64,000 bases of DNA from the IMG/VR virus record IMGVR_UViG_3300031730_000001, positions 1 through 64,000 of that record. One strand, 5' to 3'. The notes under the pieces were generated by a model. It saw only the letters and a program-made list of their open reading frames with translations. It ran no database searches and had not been told where the DNA came from. Source of the stretch: a virus. The stretch's first letter is position 1. Each line of letters opens with the position of its first letter. Of the stretch, positions 9,857-49,948 are shown piece after piece. The translations under genes and the position numbers were made by a program.

Positions 9857-10422
9857 CGACCTTCACCGACGACTTCAACCGGGCCAACGGCGCCCCGGGA
9901 GCCAACTGGGTAGACGCAACCGGCCTCTGGACGATCGTCTCCAACCAGCTCTCATCAGGGACCGCGGGCGGCACGATCGTCATCCGCGCCGCCACCGCGA
10001 TGGCCACCAACGACAACTCGGCGCAGGTGACGATCGCCTCCACCGGGGCCGTCTCCCACGGCGTGTGGTGCCGCGGCAACACCGGCTTCACGCAGGGCTA
10101 CCTGTGGCGCAACGACGGCACCTCGTGGGTGCTCTTCTCGAACGTCGGCGGCAGCTTCACCAGCCTCGGCAGCTACGCCGCAGCAGCCGTCGCCGGCGAC
10201 GTAGTGAAAGTCCAGGCTGTCGGATCGACGATCCAGGGCTTCGTCAACGGGATCTCGCGCGTCTCCGTCGCCAACACGGCCGTGGCAACCGGCACCAGTG
10301 TCGGTATCCGGGCCGAATCCACCAACCTCCTCAGATTCGACGACTTCACCGCCGCGGACGTGTCCGCCGGCACCGCCACCAAGACCCCCAGCACGCTCAG
10401 CCAATACGGCAGCTACTTCTAG
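9853..10422 (+). CDS. Beta-sandwich (ConA/lectin-like) putative virion protein
   Basis: FTDDFNRAN...W...FDDFTA signature; C-terminal QYGSYF. Confidence 0.7.
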   Translation: MTTFTDDFNRANGAPGANWVDATGLWTIVSNQLSSGTAGGTIVIRAATAMATNDNSAQVTIASTGAVSHGVWCRGNTGFTQGYLWRNDGTSWVLFSNVGGSFTSLGSYAAAAVAGDVVKVQAVGSTIQGFVNGISRVSVANTAVATGTSVGIRAESTNLLRFDDFTAADVSAGTATKTPSTLSQYGSYF

Positions 10423-38645: not shown

Positions 38646-38993
38646 GTGCCTCCCGAGCCGTCGAACGCAGAGCTCGCCCACCGCATCGAGGCCATGCGGT
38701 TGGACCTCAAGGAGGACTTCAGGGAGCTCGGCAAGCGGCTCGACGCCAAGGTGTCCGTCGAACGCTACGAGCTGGAACGGCGGGCCGCCGACGGGGTGCA
38801 CCGTGCGCTCATCGAACGCGTGGCGGCCATCGAGGCCGAGCGGGCATCGGAGAAGCGGGACACCGAGTTGGAGCGCCGGAAGCGGGAGGATGAGCGGCGC
38901 GCAGACAAGCGGCTCATCTTCTCCGCGCTGATCGTGCCGGTGCTGATCGTGCTGCTGCAGGTGTACCTCTCGTCACGGGGGGCCGGTTCGTGA
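38646..38993 (+). CDS. Coiled-coil membrane protein of lysis cassette
   Basis: Charged helix plus C-terminal TM. Confidence 0.75.
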   Translation: MPPEPSNAELAHRIEAMRLDLKEDFRELGKRLDAKVSVERYELERRAADGVHRALIERVAAIEAERASEKRDTELERRKREDERRADKRLIFSALIVPVLIVLLQVYLSSRGAGS

Positions 38994-39706
38994 GCGAACA
39001 CGCATCCCCGACGAAGGAACGGCGGCGCGCCGATGTGCGGTACATAGTCGTCGCAACTGGCGCCGTCGGCTCCTTCGCCGCCATGGCGATCTGGGTACAG
39101 GGCCTCTCGCACGACCTGCGCGTCTCCAACGACGCCCGCGACGCCCTGGCCCGGCAGGTGCAGTCCCTCGGCCACAAGCCGGTCGCCGGACCGCCCGGGT
39201 CGCGCGGCGAGGCAGGCGCATCAGTCGTCGGGCCCCGCGGACCTCAGGGCGTCGCCGGCTCGCCGGGCCCGACCGGATCACCCGGCAGTACGGGCAAGAC
39301 CGGGGCGACCGGCGCGCCAGGCGCCACCGGATCACCCGGAGTCGGCGTCACCGGGGCCGCCGGCAGCCCAGGCCCCGCTGGACCCCAAGGTGAGGCCGGG
39401 CCGGCAGGCCCCCAAGGCGACCAGGGTCCGAAGGGCGACACCGGGGACACGGGCGCGACCGGCCCAGCACCGTCCGGCTGGACGTTCACCGACGGCACCG
39501 GGGTCACCCAGGAGTGCGCACCTGACAGTGAAGGCTCCACCCACTACACGTGCACGCCCGCCCCGGCGAGCCCTTCGCCCACTCCGTCGAATCCGGAGTC
39601 CGCGGTGCTGGTGCTCAGTTCCGCGCTCGTCCGCAGGAGGATCGATGCCCCAAGCAGTACCCGCGGCCGACACCGGGCGGTCCGCCACCGCGGTGCCCAT
39701 CGCTGA
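38990..39706 (+). CDS. Membrane-anchored collagen-like protein
   Basis: TM, coiled coil, Gly-X-Y runs, Cys pair. Confidence 0.8.
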   Translation: MSEHASPTKERRRADVRYIVVATGAVGSFAAMAIWVQGLSHDLRVSNDARDALARQVQSLGHKPVAGPPGSRGEAGASVVGPRGPQGVAGSPGPTGSPGSTGKTGATGAPGATGSPGVGVTGAAGSPGPAGPQGEAGPAGPQGDQGPKGDTGDTGATGPAPSGWTFTDGTGVTQECAPDSEGSTHYTCTPAPASPSPTPSNPESAVLVLSSALVRRRIDAPSSTRGRHRAVRHRGAHR

Positions 39707-39864: not shown

Positions 39865-41231
39865 CTTGTCGTTGACTCGCCAGAAGGGGGGCGACTAGCC
39901 GCCCAGTAAGTGCCTTGACCTGCACTTTTGATGCTAGAATGGGTCAACTTAGCTTCTGCTGGAGGGTGTTGCCTTGCTGACGGGTCGTCGCTACCGGCTC
40001 GCGCTCACGCCCGAGACAGGAGGCGCAGTGCGAGGAGTACGCCAACACCTGCCGCGCCGTATGGAACACCGGCCTCGAACAACGCCGGGAGTATCGGCGG
40101 CGCGGGGCGTGGATGAACTTCGTGCCACAGTGCGCCGAGCTCGCGGAGGCCAGGCAGGCGCTTGAGTGGCTGCGCGCCGCGCCTTCCTGCATTCATCAAC
40201 AGACGTTGCGGGACCTTGAACAAGCCTGCCGCGAGCGCGGCACGTGGAAAGTGCGATGGCGGTCGAAGGCGCGCTGGAGCCCGTCGTTTCGCTTTCCTGA
40301 CAGGAGATGGCTTCGCGTAGAGCGGCTTGGCCGCAAGTGGGGCCGGGTCAAGCTGCCAAAACTCGGATGGGTCCGCTTCCGTTGGTCGCGCCCCCCGGGC
40401 GGTGAGATCCACTCCGCCACGGTGTCCCGAAAAGGTGCGCACTGGTTCGTTTCCCTCCTGATAGACGACGGTCGGGAGGTGCCCGAGAAGCACGCCATGC
40501 CGAACACGGCGGTAGGCATAGATCGGGGCGTGAAGGTCGCCGCAGTCACCTCCGATGGCGCGTTCCATGACCGGGAGTTCATCACTGCTGGCGAGGCCGG
40601 CCGGTATCGACGGTTGCAGCAGAAGCTAGCCCGCTCCAGGCGTGGATCCGCGAACCGGCGCAAGACCATCACGGCCATGGGCCGAATCACGAGCCGAGCG
40701 TCAGACCGCCGTGGTGACTTCTGCGCCTTCACCGCGAACCGCATCACCGGGCGGAACGCCGTGGTGGTGCTGGAAGACCTCAAGATAAAAAACATGACCG
40801 CATCGGCGTCCAGAACTCTGGACGAGCCGGGTGAGCGAGTCGCTCAGAAGCGCGGCCTGAACCGCAGCATCCTCGACAAGGGGTGGAGCCGCCTTGGGCT
40901 CGCCCTTGCCAACGCCGCCCGATACACGGGCACCTCCGTGGTTCTGGTTAATCCCGCGTACACCTCGCAGCGTTGCCACGCCTGCGGGTTCGTCACTGAA
41001 GGCAACCGCGAGAGCCAAGCGGTCTTCGTGTGCAAGAACCCTGGGTGTGGCCACGCAGACCATGCCGACGTGAACGCCGCAAAGAACATCCTCAGCGCCG
41101 CAGGGCATGTGGTGCCAGCCTGTGGAGACCTCGCCGTTGGGCGGTCCGCGAAGCAGGAACCCGGAGGCCGGGCGACCGGCCGAACCCTTCGTTTGGGAAT
41201 CTCCGGCCTCCATGCCGGAGAGGAAGCCAAC
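39865..41231 (+). mobile_element. IS200/IS605-family solo-tnpB element (no tnpA); ends approximate
   Basis: tnpB; right-end hairpin CTCCGGC-CTCCAT-GCCGGAG then AGGAAGCCAA; left-end imperfect hairpin. Confidence 0.75.
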
Positions 41232-41267
41232 TGCTCGTCAGCCTGTCCACCCTCCCTCTGCCTCTGA
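39974..41267 (+). pseudogene. tnpB: RNA-guided endonuclease TnpB with N-terminal frameshift (~40016)
   Basis: MLTGRRYRLALTPE joins QEAQCEEYANTCRAVWN in +1 frame; RuvC GIDRG, LEDL, ADVNAA; Zn finger. Confidence 0.88.
41100..41250 (+). ncRNA. Predicted TnpB omega/reRNA (bounds approximate)
   Basis: Overlaps tnpB 3' end and right-end hairpin as in other TnpB systems. Confidence 0.55.
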
Positions 41268-41278
41268 CCGGCACGACT

Positions 41279-41312
41279 GCGCCCCCGCTGCCTTCGGGCG
41301 GTGGGGGCGCTT
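41279..41312. terminator. Terminator between convergent genes
   Basis: GCGCCCCCGCTGCC-TTCG-GGCGGTGGGGGCGC. Confidence 0.75.
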
Positions 41313-41314
41313 CC

Positions 41315-41923
41315 TCACGTCCCGTCGGTGAACGGCGGATTCTCCAGGTGCCGGGCGAGGATCCATTCCTCGTCGCCGCGGCGGCAGGTCAGGATGAGCC
41401 GGATCGGCTTGCCGACGTACTCGCCTTGCCACATGGCCTGGGACTTGCCCTCCATCCAGCGCCCGGGCCTGGTGCGCTGCATCGCGCGTTGCGTCCCAGT
41501 ACCCACGTCGAGCGGGAAGGCTTCGGGCCCGCGCCCGTGCTCGTCGGTTCCGTTGCTGCCGTGTGAGAAGCGGAAGGGCCCCCAGACGAAGGCGTCGACG
41601 TCGGCCTGCGTCACGTTCCTCTCCGGGTGGAGGACATTGCGTTCCTTGTCGTCGTCGCCGACGACTATGCGTACCTCGTCGAGGCGGCGCAGCGCGTCGG
41701 GCCCGCTGAGATGCACGTTGAGGAGGGCCTGGCCGTTGCCGGTATCTATCAGCTCAAGGTCGAACTGCGGCGTCAGCTCGGCGTGCCACCGGTCCTGCTC
41801 GATGTGGGTCATGGCGTCCGCGGTCTCCGCGGATCGGTGGGCGGCGAGCCATGCGCCGGCCGTCGCGACCGCACTGAGGGCGGCCGTAGAGAAGGTGGCG
41901 ACGTCGCCCCAATGGATGCTCAT
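41315..41923 (-). CDS. Protein with N-terminal membrane anchor (accessory)
   Basis: MSIHWGDVATFSTAALSAVATAGAWLAA then beta domain. Confidence 0.75.
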   Translation of the reverse strand: MSIHWGDVATFSTAALSAVATAGAWLAAHRSAETADAMTHIEQDRWHAELTPQFDLELIDTGNGQALLNVHLSGPDALRRLDEVRIVVGDDDKERNVLHPERNVTQADVDAFVWGPFRFSHGSNGTDEHGRGPEAFPLDVGTGTQRAMQRTRPGRWMEGKSQAMWQGEYVGKPIRLILTCRRGDEEWILARHLENPPFTDGT

Positions 41924-42036
41924 GCGGCGGGAGCGTAGCGGGAGTTGACCGCTGGCGAACCCGGCACGACAACGCCCCGCCCTCTCACTGCCTTCCGGCG
42001 GCGGGGGAGCGGGGCTTTTCTGTCGTTGCGGGAGGT

Positions 42037-42219
42037 CTACTCCCGTTCGCGGATCGCCTGCGCCAGGTCTCTGATCGCCGCCCCGACGGCTAGGAGGGCG
42101 TGCACCTGGGCCCTGGCAAGCAGCGCTGCCTGATCGCCGGAGCCGTCTTCTCTGGCGTGGCTGTCGTCCAGGTTGTTGAGTGCTCGCGCCTGTAGCTGGT
42201 CGTACCTTCGCTCTGTCAT
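42037..42219 (-). CDS. Small helical protein
   Basis: RBS GAGAGG; ARAQVHALLA. Confidence 0.6.
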   Translation of the reverse strand: MTERRYDQLQARALNNLDDSHAREDGSGDQAALLARAQVHALLAVGAAIRDLAQAIRERE

Positions 42220-42351
42220 GGCCGCCCTCTCGTCTACTACAGGGCGAGAGTCTGCCGAAGGTGGGCCCATCTGTCAGGAGGGCCTCGGCGACTTCATAGC
42301 GCATAACGCCTTGTGAAGCGCGCCGAGTTGACCGGGTTCGGCATTCTCCAC

Positions 42352-42383
42352 CGCTACAGAATAATGACCGTTATCCTGTAGCG
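42352..42383. other. dif/lox-like recombination site
   Basis: CGCTACAGAATAA-TGACCG-TTATCCTGTAGCG; 12/13 inverted arms, 6-bp spacer. Confidence 0.75.
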
Positions 42384-43424
42384 ATGAACACGCTTCCCGT
42401 CATCCGATCCACCGGGACCAGCCCCGACCGTCCAACCCAACGGGCCATCACGCTCCGCGGCAGGCCGCCCGCTTCGACCCCCGACGCACTGCTCGCGCTA
42501 CTCGCTGAGGCCGGCGCCGGGCCCACCGTCCTGAAGGCCACCCGATCGTGGCTCGCCAAGCGCCCGAGTGGGCACAGCAAGACCGCCTACGCCAAAGACG
42601 CCGCCTGGTGGCTCGCCTTCTGTGCCGCCAGTGACACCGACCCCACGCGCGCACGGGCCACCGACGCCGACGACTACGAAACGGCGCTCCGCGAGACAGG
42701 CCTGGCCAAGTCAACTCGTGGGCGCCGCCTGGCTGCCGCGTCGAGCTGGTACACCTACCTGATCCGCGCGGACGTCGCCGACCGGAACCCATTCGAGGGG
42801 ATGGAGCGACCCTCAGTCTCCGCCGACGACTCACCCACCCGCGGACTCACCGCCGACCAGCTCGGCAGGCTGCTCAACCACGCCCGCGCTCGCGAGTCGA
42901 CGCGCACCTATGCCCTGCTCGTCACGCTCGCCACCACCGCGGGTCGCATCGGCTCCGTCCTCGCTCTCACCGTAGGCAAGCTTGGCCACGACCAGGGTCA
43001 CCGCGTCGCCGACCTGATCGTGAAGGGCGACAAGACCAAGCGCGTCGTCCTGGTCCCGCTCGCCGTCGAGGCCATCGACCGCCACATGGACGGTCGACCC
43101 CTCCAGGACGACGACTATGTGTTCGCCACCAGTACCGGGCGGCCGATGGACGAACCGGCCGCCTTCCGTCTCGTTCGACGCGTAGCCGGGGCGGCAAGGC
43201 TTCCGCACGCCGACCAGTTGTCGCCCCACTCGCTGCGCCACTCCTACGCAACGGCGCTCCTGAGCAAGGGCGTCCCCCTCGCGGATGTGCAGGACGCCAT
43301 GGGGCACGCAGACCCGCGCACCACTCGCCGCTACGACCGGGCCGCCGGGGCACTCGACCGCTCGCCGTCATACAAGATGCAGGACGAGATCACGGCCGCG
43401 ATGCGGGCTGCGGAGGGTGAGTAA
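42384..43424 (+). CDS. Tyrosine recombinase, Xer/Cre-like resolvase
   Basis: SAM-like N domain; AGRI, VKG, HSLRH, MGH, RRY. Confidence 0.92.
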   Translation: MNTLPVIRSTGTSPDRPTQRAITLRGRPPASTPDALLALLAEAGAGPTVLKATRSWLAKRPSGHSKTAYAKDAAWWLAFCAASDTDPTRARATDADDYETALRETGLAKSTRGRRLAAASSWYTYLIRADVADRNPFEGMERPSVSADDSPTRGLTADQLGRLLNHARARESTRTYALLVTLATTAGRIGSVLALTVGKLGHDQGHRVADLIVKGDKTKRVVLVPLAVEAIDRHMDGRPLQDDDYVFATSTGRPMDEPAAFRLVRRVAGAARLPHADQLSPHSLRHSYATALLSKGVPLADVQDAMGHADPRTTRRYDRAAGALDRSPSYKMQDEITAAMRAAEGE

Positions 43425-43551
43425 CTGCCGCCCCGTTCTGTCATGCTGGGAGCAGCCCGCCTCGTCCCCCCGTCGAGGCGGGCGCTCGCGCGTTCACTCT
43501 TGGTTGAAGTTGACGCCCCGAATTTCAAGGTTGCGGCCCTACAGTTGAACT

Positions 43552-43684
43552 TGCGGCATCCGGGTGGAAGACCCGGCGCTCACGCCTCGCGCCGCTTGGG
43601 AGGTGGCCCGACTGCCCTCGTGGAGTCGGAGAACCCCTGTGCCGCATCGAGTGGCTGTCCGCGCCGACGCGCGGGCGGCCACTT
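43552..43684 (+). ncRNA. Candidate structured sRNA with terminator
   Basis: -10-like TACAGT 43540; closing stem plus three hairpins; long hairpin 43650-43683. Confidence 0.4.
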
Positions 43685-43689
43685 GCACG

Positions 43690-43875
43690 TCACCCCTTCG
43701 GTTCCGGCAACACCCCCGGCTTGACCGGCACGATCTCCACGTCGGTGGCGCCGCCCGTCTCCAGCTCCGCCTTCCGCTGCCCAGCGCTGGCTTGGTCGTA
43801 GGCGACAGCGGACGCGCGGTGCGCCCCGTCTGGGTCGGTCCAGGTGAGGGCGAAGCTCTTCATGGTGGTCGTCAT
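43690..43875 (-). CDS. Small hypothetical protein
   Basis: Codon bias; MKSFALTWTDPDG. Confidence 0.65.
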   Translation of the reverse strand: MTTTMKSFALTWTDPDGAHRASAVAYDQASAGQRKAELETGGATDVEIVPVKPGVLPEPKG

Positions 43876-48371: not shown

Positions 48372-48675
48372 TCTGGGAGTCTGGGAGACGGATTGGGAGA
48401 CGATCACACTGGCGGAACCCAACGAAACACCCAACGAATCCGACGGTAGCCAGAGAGAAATGGGCTCTATGCTGGAGAGACGCCAGATCGTCGCAGGTAA
48501 GGAAGGCTCAACGAAGAGTCTGGGGCGACGCGGGGGATCGTCTCAGGCGGGCGGCGTGAGGGCCAGCGGACGGTCACGCGGCCCCACTTCCCGCCCAGCA
48601 GGACACGCGTAGAGGACTGATCCCGGAGTCGTCAGAGTGATCTTCATTCTTGGGCTTGGGAGATTTCTGGGAGAT
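48372..48675. other. attP-like region with arm-type repeats on both sides
   Basis: TGGGAG(A) at 48374, 48382, 48394 and 48657, 48668; abuts integrase 3' end. Confidence 0.65.
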
Positions 48676-49948
48676 CCACTTGCGGTCCGCGCTCCGACCG
48701 GCGCGGGCGGGGCTCCTCCCACTCCCGGTGGTGGTCCCTCACGCCCGCCGAGGCCTCCCACAGCTTCTGCAGATCCGCCGCGATGTCCAGCTCCATCGGC
48801 AGCGTCGTGTGGCTGTAGGTCCCCTCAACTCCAGGGATAACGTGCCGCATCCGCTCCTCGACCGCAACCCGCGGGTGCTTCAGCTCATCGAGCCACACCT
48901 TCATGCTGTGGCGCAGCCCGTGCGGCACGATGTCCTCGATCCCCGCCACGGCCCTCATGTCCGGCAGTCGCGCAGGGCGGCCGAGCTTGTCCGGCGTCGC
49001 CGTGTGGCCGTCCACCCAGCGGCGCCAGATGTCCGTGTAGAAGTAGGCGCTCGTCGACATCTTCTTGCCGTTGGCCGAGGGGAACACCCAAGGCGACTTG
49101 TGCGAGGCCAGCACCTCTCCCAGTAGTTCGGCGAGGAACGGAGGGATGATCAGGCTTCCCGAGCTGCCGTACTTCGGATCCACCTGCGCCGGCTTGCCGC
49201 CCACGTACTGGTGCTGTTCCTCCACCAGCAGCCGGAAACCCTGCCCGTGGTCTTCGAGGATGAGGTGTTCGCGGCGCAGGCCGGCCGCCTCGGATATCCG
49301 GAGCCCGCAGTAGGCGATCGTGAGAACCAGGGCGTAGCCGACGATGCCGCGCATGGCGCGGGCGTTGCGGGCCAGCAGCAGGGCCTGGCGCGGGGTAGCA
49401 AGGACTGTGTCGTCCTTCTTCGGCTTGCCCTTGTACTTGCCGCGCCGACGGGCCTTCAGTGTGGGCACCGGGTTGTCGCCGATCACCTTCGAGGTGACGG
49501 CGTCGTCGAACATGACCCGCATCACCGACATGACGCTCTTTACGTACCGGGGCTTGTAGCGCTTGCGCAGCTGCTGCTCCCACGTCTTCACAGCGACCGT
49601 GGACACATCGGCCATGGCGGTCGGCTCCCACCTGGGGAGGATCACGGACCGGAGGCGTTGCCGGTACGTCTTGTCGCTGCGGTTGGCGAGCTCCACCGAC
49701 TCGATCCACAGTTCGGACCAGTCGCCGACCGTGATGCGGCCGTCCTTCGGGTTGATGAACTTCTTGCGGCGCACGTCGGTTTCGAGGCCGGCCGCATACT
49801 TCGTGGCGGCGTTGGCGCTGTAGAAGGGCTGCCCGAGATCGTCACGACTGACGGAGCCGTAGTTGATGCCGTCGGGCAGCAGGTAGCGCCCGCGGTATCG
49901 GTACTTGCGAGCCTTCTTGTCGTAGCCGCGCTTCTCTGGGTACGCCAT
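48644..49948 (-). CDS. int: Tyrosine integrase
   Basis: Arm-binding N-terminus; GLRISE, HGLRHS, MRH, GTYSH. Confidence 0.95.
   Translation of the reverse strand: MAYPEKRGYDKKARKYRYRGRYLLPDGINYGSVSRDDLGQPFYSANAATKYAAGLETDVRRKKFINPKDGRITVGDWSELWIESVELANRSDKTYRQRLRSVILPRWEPTAMADVSTVAVKTWEQQLRKRYKPRYVKSVMSVMRVMFDDAVTSKVIGDNPVPTLKARRRGKYKGKPKKDDTVLATPRQALLLARNARAMRGIVGYALVLTIAYCGLRISEAAGLRREHLILEDHGQGFRLLVEEQHQYVGGKPAQVDPKYGSSGSLIIPPFLAELLGEVLASHKSPWVFPSANGKKMSTSAYFYTDIWRRWVDGHTATPDKLGRPARLPDMRAVAGIEDIVPHGLRHSMKVWLDELKHPRVAVEERMRHVIPGVEGTYSHTTLPMELDIAADLQKLWEASAGVRDHHREWEEPRPRRSERGPQVDLPEISQAQE

What the first reader, a model, noticed from the sequence alone, without database searches (positions are those of the whole stretch)
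42352..43424. Second tyrosine recombinase sitting on its own dif/loxP-like site
Seen: directly before the ATG lies CGCTACAGAATAA-TGACCG-TTATCCTGTAGCG, with 12/13 matching arms, a 6-bp asymmetric spacer and the ATAA-N6-TTAT core of dif. The enzyme has a full R-K-HxxR-H-Y set and no arm-binding domain. A -10-like TATCCT lies inside the right arm. The phage also has a separate integrase and attP. Inference: a single-enzyme, autoregulated Cre/lox-like dimer-resolution module, implying a circular extrachromosomal state or control of tandem copies. It could be a new orthogonal recombinase/site pair. I saw no second copy of the site in the window.
Basis: partly seen in the sequence, partly recalled or inferred. 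Interest (0 to 1): 0.78.

Follow-up and report, generated by a model that had tools for sequence, protein, structure and literature searches.

The report
Xer-like recombinase with promoter-embedded target site
A Streptomyces phage carries, besides its normal integrase, a small DNA recombinase gene that starts right behind the enzyme's own probable target site; the same unit occurs on many actinobacterial plasmids and most likely separates joined copies of circular DNA, so it is a new, untested member of a known kind.

Summary
CTACAGAATAATGACCGTTATCCTGTAG (42354-42381, 11-6-11; 12/13 if the arms are extended) lies 2 nt before the ATG of a 346-aa Xer-like tyrosine recombinase and occurs once in the 89.9-kb phage record.

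Homologues keep it. The motif TAA-N6-TTA occurs 35 times in 49 related viral loci, 20 of them at the recombinase start. The two arms change together (8 of 11 positions). In 21 of 29 loci an ATG/GTG sits exactly 2 nt after the right arm, which places TATCCT at -12..-7 of a leaderless start.

The same unit is found on:
- a 13.5-kb TraB plasmid (71% identity, same arms);
- a circular 37-kb conjugative plasmid;
- six further circular actinobacterial plasmids.

No twin site was found in host genomes. In two related provirus records the site is intact and internal, so it is not the attachment site.

Best reading (0.58): an autoregulated, single-enzyme multimer-resolution unit of the Cre/loxP, MrpA/mrpS and XerS/difSL kind. 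An extrachromosomal prophage is not supported: no ParA/ParB was found and a separate integrase is present. This scan has noted the same kind of unit before on other DNA. It is a new member of a known kind. Nothing was tested at the bench.

The parts
42354..42381 (.). dif-like core site, 11-6-11: left arm 42354-42364, asymmetric spacer 42365-42370, right arm 42371-42381. The palindrome extends imperfectly to 42349-42386.
   Evidence: Unique in window and record. Conserved next to homologous genes. Arms co-vary.
42372..42377 (+). -10-like hexamer TATCCT inside the right arm, at -12..-7 relative to the A of the ATG. This is the candidate promoter of a leaderless mRNA (inferred).
   Evidence: Sequence. 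An ATG/GTG lies exactly 2 nt after the right arm in 21 of 29 loci, and 20 of those 21 have TANNNT at this place. No transcript data are available.
42338..42365 (+). Alternative promoter-like match TCGGCA-16-AATAAT. Its second hexamer lies on the left arm and first spacer base, so it would give an 11-12 nt leader without a Shine-Dalgarno sequence.
   Evidence: the only promoter-like site in 41900-43800, with 0.1 expected in shuffles. Its first hexamer is not conserved in L012.
42384..43424 (+). Xer-like tyrosine recombinase of 346 aa. It has a SAM-like core-binding domain plus a catalytic domain (R188, K214, H282, R285, H308, Y317) and about 50 extra N-terminal residues of unknown role.
48644..49948 (-). 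Context, not part of the unit: the separate, conventional phage integrase (434 aa).
   Evidence: Pfam PF00589 and a sub-threshold PF22022 central-domain match (18.5 bits, cut-off 27). PHROG 1 integrase. Second PF00589 match in the record.
40113..41267 (+). Context, not part of the unit: a TnpB (IS605 OrfB) gene with an HgcC-like RNA match at 41122-41243. It ends more than 1 kb before the site.
   Evidence: Homologous recombinase loci lack it.

Best explanation
The gene 42384-43424 encodes a single-subunit, Xer-like tyrosine recombinase. The 28-bp site directly in front of it (42354-42381) is its own crossover site. Two monomers bind the two 11-bp arms, and strand exchange takes place across the asymmetric 6-bp spacer, which gives the site a direction.

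Each replicon copy has one site. Recombination between directly repeated sites therefore turns head-to-tail dimers or tandem copies of the circular phage or plasmid DNA into monomers. This is what Cre/loxP does for P1 and what MrpA/mrpS does for the Streptomyces plasmid SCP2*.

The -10 element and the start of a probably leaderless mRNA lie inside and 2 nt behind the right arm. Bound recombinase should therefore shut off its own gene. The unit is a portable cassette shared by actinobacterial plasmids and phages.

Shown:
- the site and the catalytic residues;
- conservation of the site next to homologues, and co-variation of its arms;
- the fixed geometry between site and start codon;
- single copy per replicon;
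- presence on circular plasmids;
- absence of a twin site in the hosts searched.

Inferred:
- binding, recombination and resolution as the role;
- the leaderless start and autorepression.
For: (1) Cognate site.
- Seven close viral homologues (66-78% identity) carry the same site. Nucleotide similarity to the window begins at 42354-42356 in 4 of them and ends at the gene's end.
- In 49 viral loci (578,504 nt), TAA-N6-TTA occurs 35 times. Twenty of these lie in the 300-nt windows around the recombinase starts, which total 14,700 nt.
- In 24 distinct sites, 84.1% of arm positions are complementary, against 71.5 +/- 1.6% in shuffles (0 of 500 shuffles reach the observed value).
- 8 of 11 arm pairs show changes on both sides, and 35 such cells occur against 12.7 +/- 2.7 in shuffles. 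Slid controls give 28-45%.
- Examples with other arms: L022 ATGCATGATAATTACCCTTATCATGCAT and L033 CTACACCATAATGCACGTTATGGTGTAG.

(2) Enzyme.
- The catalytic residues are invariant or nearly invariant.
- The best solved relative is XerD 1a0p (E 1.5e-36), followed by XerA and XerH.

(3) One site per replicon.
- G000, G402, G403 and G404 each have exactly one TAA-N6-TTA.
- 4 of 5 distant records have one ATAA-N6-TTAT.
- In IMG/VR the pattern hits 9 contigs. Seven are the high-GC loci next to the gene; two are AT-rich, and I found no homologue in the fetched stretches.

(4) Plasmids.
- NZ_CP108534.1 has a 13,482-bp unit with TraA/TraB and prim-pol. Its recombinase is 71.3% identical, and its site CTACAGAATAATGACTGTTATCCTGTAG lies 2 nt before the ATG.
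- G146:C4 is a circular 37,165-bp TrwC/T4CP plasmid with one site heading an operon that ends in a 36.6%-identical recombinase.
- 6 of 8 further plasmid records examined have a dif-like site within the fetched flanks.
- 44 plasmid records hold a homologue at E<=1e-12.

(5) Not an att site.
- No twin was found in S. prasinopilosus.
- In 401 Streptomyces genomes, 8 have an exact match, and every exact match I inspected heads an ORF or a recombinase operon.
- ATAA-N6-TTAT occurs only 1-5 times per genome in 5 genomes.
- In proviruses G402 and G404 the site is intact, about 10 kb and 2.8 kb from the record end.

(6) Geometry.
- An ATG/GTG lies 2 nt after the arm in 21 of 29 loci.
- It is in frame with the recombinase in 16 of these.

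(7) Precedent.
- MrpA of SCP2* resolves plasmid multimers (passage in PMC3218068).
- mrpS fits an oligonucleotide pair, and MrpA acts on it in E. coli (passage in PMC4685060).
- XerS is genetically linked to difSL (abstract of PMC2731167, as shown in the search listing).
Against: - No experiment or read evidence shows recombination. The only strong holder of this DNA is the probable source metagenome, kept as contigs, and these show nothing at the site.
- The phage shows no plasmid-maintenance genes. PF13614, PF01656 and PF02195 gave no match over the cut-off in G000 and G402-G405. It also has its own integrase, so it is unclear when a resolution function would be needed.
- G402 and G404, both classed as proviruses, hold no other tyrosine or serine recombinase in the record.
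- Arthrobacter and Gordonia phage genes at 28-35% identity are annotated as integrases.
- Two plasmid homologues (pSLE1, pSAM1) have no such site within 3 kb.
- 8 of 29 sites are not followed by a start codon at +2. In L042 and L097 that start codon is not in frame with the recombinase match.
- The plasmid site searches had no shuffled control.
Confidence: 0.58

Rival explanations
1. Integration module. The Xer-like enzyme is a simple-site integrase (no arm sites), the palindrome is attP, and it inserts the phage or plasmid into a similar site in the host or in another replicon.
For: - G402 and G404 are classed as proviruses, and this is their only tyrosine or serine recombinase in the record.
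- Related genes in Arthrobacter and Gordonia phages are annotated as integrases.
- The gene lies in the lysogeny region, about 5 kb from the integrase.
- Simple-site recombinases also fuse molecules (MrpA multimerises a plasmid; passage in PMC4685060).
Against: - In G402 and G404 the full palindrome is internal, at 9963 and 2839, with phage-homologous genes between it and the record end.
- Both records end where G000 and G403 carry their conventional integrase, so its absence may be a boundary effect.
- No second copy or half-copy was found in the four 87-92-kb records. None was found in the S. prasinopilosus genome either.
- G048 has a single ATAA-N6-TTAT in 6.8 Mb.
- The unit sits on free circular plasmids.
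- This phage has another integrase.
Confidence: 0.15
2. Inter-replicon fusion or genome cyclisation. Phages and plasmids share the same arms, so the enzyme fuses a phage with a co-resident plasmid. That would allow transfer of phage DNA by conjugation or of plasmid DNA in capsids. Alternatively it circularises terminally redundant infecting DNA. Different spacers would then act as natural compatibility barriers.
For: - The arms are identical in ~90-kb phages and in a 13.5-kb TraB plasmid, while the spacers differ (TGACCG, TGACCC, TGACTG).
- A second subfamily at 31-40% identity keeps the arms with spacers TTACGG, TTACCG, TTACAG and TGACCG.
- The phage encodes an FtsK/SpoIIIE-like protein (PHROG 1358, E 3.6e-31).
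Against: - No cointegrate or hybrid junction was seen in any record.
- The site is 26 kb from the terminase gene, so it is unlikely to lie in a terminal redundancy.
- Spacer variety is equally expected from drift.
Confidence: 0.1
3. Operator only. The palindrome is a repressor-binding site for the recombinase or another protein, and the real crossover site lies elsewhere or the enzyme has another substrate.
For: - It overlaps both candidate -10 elements and abuts the start codon.
- The fixed spacing to the start codon points to a constraint from expression.
Against: - The 11-6-11 layout, with invariant TAA/TTA next to an asymmetric 6-bp spacer, is that of a tyrosine-recombinase core site.
- In several relatives the site lies 0.3-2.4 kb from the gene, or downstream of it, so it is kept without a promoter role.
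- No other conserved repeat was seen near the gene.
Confidence: 0.05
4. Nucleic-acid hairpin. The inverted repeat acts as an RNA or single-strand DNA stem-loop (attenuator, terminator of the upstream unit, or transposon end of the neighbouring TnpB element).
For: Compensatory changes keep the arms complementary. A TnpB gene lies upstream.
Against: - The invariant, weak A-T pairs lie next to the loop.
- There is no T-run after the repeat.
- The site is more than 1 kb from the TnpB/HgcC-like RNA end.
- It travels with the recombinase in loci without TnpB.
Confidence: 0.03

Closest known systems
MrpA/mrpS of Streptomyces coelicolor plasmid SCP2* (Warth, Haug & Altenbuchner 2011; I saw only the citation and passages in PMC3218068 and PMC4685060)
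   Same: Both are tyrosine recombinases of a Streptomyces replicon that act alone on a short site. MrpA resolves plasmid multimers and works in E. coli without host-specific factors.
   Different: Neither the MrpA sequence nor the mrpS sequence was available here (SCP2 is not in the plasmid collection; the paper is not held). Homology and site similarity are therefore untested. This copy sits in a tailed phage that also has an integrase.
XerS/difSL of streptococci and lactococci (abstract of PMC2731167 and listing of PMC2965235)
   Same: [quoted passage not shown]
   Different: XerS is a chromosomal housekeeping system controlled by FtsK. The NCBIfam XerS model scores 33.8 bits here against a cut-off of 267. 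This unit is on mobile elements.
XerC/XerD with dif
   Same: XerD is the best sequence and structure relative (1a0p, E 1.5e-36). The site has the same 11-6-11 layout with an ATAA-N6-TTAT core.
   Different: This is one enzyme with near-symmetric arms instead of two enzymes with different arms. The equivalog scores are 116.6 and 114.5 bits against cut-offs of 335 and 330. It is not a chromosomal site.
Cre/loxP of phage P1 and other Cre-type pairs (PMC10250229, passages only)
   Same: Both are phage-borne, single-enzyme systems with a simple inverted-repeat site, one site per genome and a role in dimer resolution. Both are potential genome-engineering tools.
   Different: The sequence link to Cre is only faint (7rhz, E 3.7e-4 over residues 62-209). 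That loxP is 13-8-13 is recalled. P1 is a plasmid prophage with a partition system, and none was found here.

Membership tests
Tyrosine recombinases (Pfam PF00589) | Catalytic residues R, K, H-x-x-R, H/W and Y in the C-terminal domain | tested here: met
   R188, K214, H282, R285, H308 and Y317 are present. All are invariant in 29 homologues except H282, which is nearly invariant (at least 90%). PF00589 scores E 2.2e-26.
Simple (Xer/Cre-like) recombinases without arm-binding domain | Only a core-binding (SAM-like) domain plus a catalytic domain, with no arm-type DNA-binding domain | tested here: inconclusive
   Pfam finds only PF02899 and PF00589. XerD aligns from residue 54. That leaves about 50 N-terminal residues, partly conserved, of unknown fold.
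XerC / XerD orthologues | Score over the NCBIfam equivalog cut-off; chromosomal, paired enzymes | tested here: not met
   TIGR02224 scores 116.6 against 335.15 and TIGR02225 scores 114.5 against 329.6. Only 3 of 401 Streptomyces genomes have a homologue at E<=1e-60, with 5 candidates scored per genome. The gene is therefore accessory, not housekeeping.
XerS/difSL | Membership of the XerS equivalog; site adjacent to the gene | tested here: not met
   NF003462 scores 33.8 bits against a cut-off of 267. Only the adjacency of site and gene is shared.
Core-type recombination site (dif/lox/FRT kind) | Two inverted 11-13-bp arms around an asymmetric 6-8-bp spacer, cognate to the enzyme | tested here: met
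   The layout is shown. Conservation and arm co-variation with the adjacent gene are shown. Actual cleavage and exchange are not testable here.
Multimer-resolution system of a replicon | One site per replicon copy, and presence on autonomously replicating circular DNA | tested here: met
   The site is single in 4 of 4 full records. It is present on a circular 37-kb plasmid, on a 13.5-kb plasmid unit, and on the circular plasmids.
Multimer-resolution system of a replicon | Loss of the system raises multimers and lowers stability | not testable with these tools
   This needs a deletion and plasmid or phage stability assays.
Phage integrase/attP | The site recombines with a host attB, so in a lysogen it is split into attL and attR at the prophage ends | tested here: not met
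   The site is intact and internal in proviruses G402 and G404. No twin was found in host genomes. The host flanks of those proviruses were not available.
MrpA/mrpS family | Sequence homology to MrpA and similarity of the site to mrpS | not tested
   Neither sequence could be obtained.

The most novel reading that the evidence does not exclude
The unit is a widely shared, portable 'monomerisation and compatibility' cassette of actinobacterial phages and plasmids. The promoter is built into the crossover site, so the enzyme's level is set by site occupancy. Replicons that share the same arms are kept from fusing by different 6-bp spacers. Where spacers match, the enzyme would fuse a tailed phage with a conjugative plasmid. 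Together with the phage's FtsK/SpoIIIE-like protein, that would let phage DNA move by Streptomyces-type conjugation, or plasmids move in capsids. The family would also supply a set of naturally orthogonal recombinase/site pairs that work in high-GC hosts.
Probability: 0.12. Interest if true: 0.7.

Novelty: new member of a known kind. Interest (0 to 1): 0.42.

Why it matters
If the reading holds, integrating tailed phages of Streptomyces carry the same plasmid-type resolution cassette as small conjugative plasmids. That is a concrete link between the phage and plasmid gene pools of actinomycetes.

The fixed design, with the crossover site on a leaderless promoter and the start codon 2 nt behind the arm, is a compact self-limiting switch that could be tested directly.

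The family shows many arm and spacer variants with matched enzymes. It is therefore a ready source of candidate orthogonal, accessory-factor-free recombinase/site pairs for engineering Streptomyces and other high-GC bacteria.

It does not open a long-standing question. The kind of system is known, and this scan has met it before on other DNA.

Tried and rejected
- TnpB link, rejected. The upstream TnpB (40113-41267) and its HgcC-like RNA match (41122-41243; 34 bits, below the gathering score of 50) end more than 1 kb before the site. The homologue in phage PIS 136 sits in an unrelated context, and related recombinase loci lack TnpB.
- Invertible or excisable segment, rejected. There is no second site or half-site in G000, G402, G403 or G404.
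- Host dif twin, not found. ATAA-N6-TTAT is rare in 5 Streptomyces genomes (2, 2, 1, 3 and 5 places), and no common chromosomal site emerged.
- pZL12-like phage-plasmid identity, not supported. The large terminase finds only a 30.5% match in the plasmid collection. pSLE1 and pSAM1 carry a 39-42% homologue, but I found no site within 3 kb of it. The size of pZL12 is recalled only.
- TraB identity of the 853-aa ORF (85041-87602 of the record), partly supported. There was no Pfam or NCBIfam hit and no similarity to the plasmid TraB. PF01580 scored 18.4 bits, below its cut-off. PHROG 1358, an FtsK/SpoIIIE-like protein, scored E 3.6e-31.
- Expression: no RNA holder listed. The laid contigs only reproduced the assembly. 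One 151-nt contig of the source run matches from 42354 onward.
- Generic inverted-repeat scoring was uninformative in this GC-rich DNA, because control regions reached 8-11 of 11. I replaced it with the AT-core motif count.
- Literature. Searches found no paper on this family in phages. I read passages only (PMC4487206, PMC3218068, PMC4685060, PMC10250229, PMC3414803, PMC12260392) and abstracts in listings. Supplements were not opened. Absence in print is claimed only for these searches.
- Count correction. In one search the reversed-pattern control hit 7 genomes; my note says 8.
Full report
**What is there**

The window is the first 64 kb of an 89,873-bp IMG/VR virus record (linear, estimated 95% complete) with about 68% G+C. 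It is a tailed phage. PHROGs finds a large terminase, portal, major head protein and tape measure, a collagen-like tail fibre at 38990-39706, and antirepressor, RecT and repressor-like HTH genes.

The arms match 12 of 13, and the repeat finder extends them to 16 nt at 88%. I describe the site as 11-6-11, 42354-42381: CTACAGAATAATGACCGTTATCCTGTAG.

It is not a chance feature.
- The 32-mer, with up to 3 mismatches, is unique in the window, and no shuffle gave a match.
- The half-site occurs only as the two arms.
- The AT-rich core TAA-N6-TTA occurs once in the whole record.

**The enzyme**

Pfam finds the catalytic domain and the SAM-like core-binding domain only. NCBIfam places it near XerC, XerD and XerA but far below every equivalog cut-off. 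It is therefore Xer-like, not an XerC, XerD or XerS orthologue.

A profile of 29 homologues finds XerD (1a0p, E 1.5e-36, query 54-322), then a chain deposited as ribosome-associated translation inhibitor RaiA (9i5v, E 1.6e-25), then XerA, XerH, integron and other integrases. Cre appears only faintly.

R188, K214, R285, H308 and Y317 are invariant and H282 is nearly so. The N-terminus (M-D/S-x-L-P) is conserved among homologues, which supports the ATG at 42384 as the start. About 50 residues precede the part that aligns with XerD.

**Homologues keep the site**

A protein search gave 2265 hits at E<=0.001 among 8000 scored candidates. The best 120 are mostly from Streptomyces, at 47-87% identity.

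Seven viral contigs with 66-78% identical genes carry the same site at the same place. In four of them, nucleotide similarity to the window starts at 42354-42356, the outer edge of the left arm, and ends at the end of the gene. Site plus gene therefore behave as one module.

Across 49 viral loci (578,504 nt), TAA-N6-TTA occurs 35 times. Twenty of these lie in the 300-nt windows around the predicted recombinase starts, which make up 2.5% of the sequence. Several of the remaining 15 have 10-11 of 11 complementary arm positions and lie 0.4-2.4 kb from the gene.

The arms differ between subfamilies but stay complementary. In 24 distinct sites:
- 84.1% of arm cells pair, against 71.5 +/- 1.6% after shuffling (0 of 500 shuffles reach it);
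- 8 of 11 positions show changes on both sides;
- 35 cells show such changes, against 12.7 +/- 2.7 in shuffles;
- registers slid by 1-3 columns give 28-45%.

The inner TAA/TTA and the first spacer base T are invariant or nearly so. The site therefore has a fixed direction relative to the gene. This is what one expects of the cognate core site of the adjacent enzyme. The relatedness of the sequences inflates such statistics somewhat, as the tool warns.

**Fixed geometry with the start codon**

In 21 of 29 sites an ATG or GTG lies exactly 2 nt after the 11-bp right arm.
- In 16 of these it is in frame with the recombinase. These are the window, L012-L018, L103, L021, L022, L024, L026 and L034, plus L098 and L095 by arithmetic.
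- In L042 and L097 it is not in frame with the recombinase match.
- In L092, L094 and L096 I could not tell.

With this spacing, the hexamer at -12..-7 of the start codon is TATCCT here, and it fits TANNNT in 20 of the 21. That is the geometry of leaderless actinobacterial genes. This rule is from my own knowledge and was not tested here.

The consensus scan instead picks TCGGCA-16-AATAAT (42338-42365). Its second hexamer also lies in the site. Either way, a recombinase bound to the site would cover its own promoter. The start site and the repression are inferred. No RNA data exist for this DNA.

**Where else the unit occurs**

- *Streptomyces sp. NBC_01220 plasmid unnamed3.* The 26,964-bp record is a perfect head-to-tail dimer of a 13,482-bp unit, with 0 differences. 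The unit carries prim-pol, primase, TraA, TraB and a GntR regulator. Each unit has a 71.3%-identical recombinase with CTACAGAATAATGACTGTTATCCTGTAG 2 nt before its ATG. The dimer may be an assembly artefact, so I draw nothing from it.
- *Contig C4 of Streptomyces genome G146.* This contig has identical 15,002-bp ends, so it is a circle of 37,165 bp. It carries a TrwC relaxase and a coupling protein. Its single site has the same inner arms and heads an operon of a 344-aa ORF and a 36.6%-identical recombinase.
- *Eight further plasmid records.* Six have a dif-like site within the fetched flanks: Micromonospora 77 kb, Kocuria 27 kb and 4.4 kb, Pseudonocardia 289 kb, Streptosporangium 358 kb (1 kb downstream of the gene), and Streptomyces NBC_01259 36.7 kb (next to ParA). 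pSLE1 and pSAM1 do not. These two scripts had no shuffled control.
- *Collection-wide counts.* 44 plasmid records hold a homologue at E<=1e-12, 28 of them from Streptomyces.
- *S. prasinopilosus copy.* It lies on a 38-kb contig beside a divergent ParA-like ATPase and a lysin-type amidase.

**Is it the attachment site?**

In 401 Streptomyces genomes, the pattern with up to 2 mismatches hit 9 genomes, 8 of them exactly. The reversed-pattern control hit 7 genomes. Every exact hit that I inspected heads an ORF or a recombinase operon, so none is a naked attB.

Further points against an att role:
- S. prasinopilosus has only the one copy.
- ATAA-N6-TTAT occurs 1-5 times per genome in five genomes, with no shared chromosomal site.
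- Only 3 of 401 genomes have a close homologue, so the gene is accessory.

G402 and G404 are classed as proviruses and hold no other tyrosine or serine recombinase. That is the best argument for an integrase role. But protein synteny shows that both records are circular permutations of this phage's gene order. Their ends map to about 45-47 kb of this record, just before the place where this phage (48644-49948) and G403 carry a conventional integrase. The site itself is intact inside them, at 2839 and 9963. The missing integrase may therefore be a boundary effect. I could not see the host flanks.

**Is the prophage a plasmid?**

This is not supported. No ParA (PF13614, PF01656) or ParB (PF02195) match over the cut-off was found in this record or in G402-G405. 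The terminase is not close to anything in the plasmid collection. The phage does encode an FtsK/SpoIIIE-like protein (85041-87602 of the record; PHROG 1358, E 3.6e-31), which is 70.7% identical in G402.

**Reading**

The most likely function is resolution of head-to-tail multimers of the circular replicating form, or of tandem copies, by one enzyme at one simple site. Self-limited expression would come from the site lying on the promoter.

Known parallels are:
- MrpA/mrpS of SCP2* (passages in PMC3218068 and PMC4685060; the original paper is not held);
- XerS/difSL (abstract of PMC2731167);
- Cre/loxP.

Because such sites carry no accessory sequences, the enzyme should also fuse molecules. Upstream conservation stops at the arm in 4 of 7 close loci. 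This leaves room for phage-plasmid cointegration, on which the observed spacer variety could bear.

I found no paper describing this family in phages in the searches.

**Earlier notes of this scan**

Notes e1-5849404, e1-5753777, e1-6109655, e1-6022706 and e1-3061435 report the same kind of unit on other DNA and reach the same reading. They are not independent evidence.

**Verdict**

- This is a new, untested member of a known kind.
- Interest is moderate.

Noticed in passing
window 40113-41267 (+) and 41122-41243 (+): There is a TnpB (IS605 OrfB, Cas12f-like TNB domain) gene without a TnpA. An HgcC-family RNA match covers its 3' end (34 bits, below the gathering score of 50; E 9.1e-05) and is probably its guide (omega) RNA. 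The nearest phage relative of the gene is in Saccharomonospora phage PIS 136, where a Y1 TnpA precedes it.
   Followed up: partly
window 41253-42015: A roughly 760-bp segment just after the TnpB element recurs, with 31-37 differing letters over about 750, on contigs of three other rhizosphere metagenomes. The breakpoints are sharp at both ends. ORFs here (41315-42304 minus strand, 41301-41948 plus strand) have no Pfam or PHROG match.
   Followed up: no
L103 (NZ_CP108534.1, whole record): The deposited 26,964-bp 'linear' plasmid is an exact tandem dimer of a 13,482-bp unit, with 0 differences. It is either an assembly artefact of a small circular plasmid or a real dimer.
   Followed up: partly
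L100-L102 (G146:C4, 52,167 bp): The contig has identical 15,002-bp ends, so it is a circular 37,165-bp conjugative plasmid (TrwC relaxase, T4 coupling protein, DnaB-like protein, C5 methylase) in a Streptomyces genome.
   Followed up: yes
L018 3463-5169 and L014 7492-9171: TROVE (Ro60-like) plus VWA proteins are encoded next to the recombinase module in two related ~90-kb phages.
   Followed up: no
record 85041-87602 (L118 5041-7602), beyond the window: An 853-aa ORF matches PHROG 1358, an FtsK/SpoIIIE-like protein (E 3.6e-31). It fails the Pfam and NCBIfam thresholds and shows no similarity to the plasmid TraB. It is 70.7% identical in G402.
   Followed up: partly
record 68706-69878 and 74717-75541 (L117), beyond the window: DpdA (deazapurine-in-DNA) and Thg1-like (tRNA-His guanylyltransferase family) genes lie in the phage's late part.
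   Followed up: no
G403 versus window: In the related 91.6-kb phage G403 the recombinase module has the opposite orientation relative to the structural genes, although it sits at the same place behind the tail genes.
   Followed up: no
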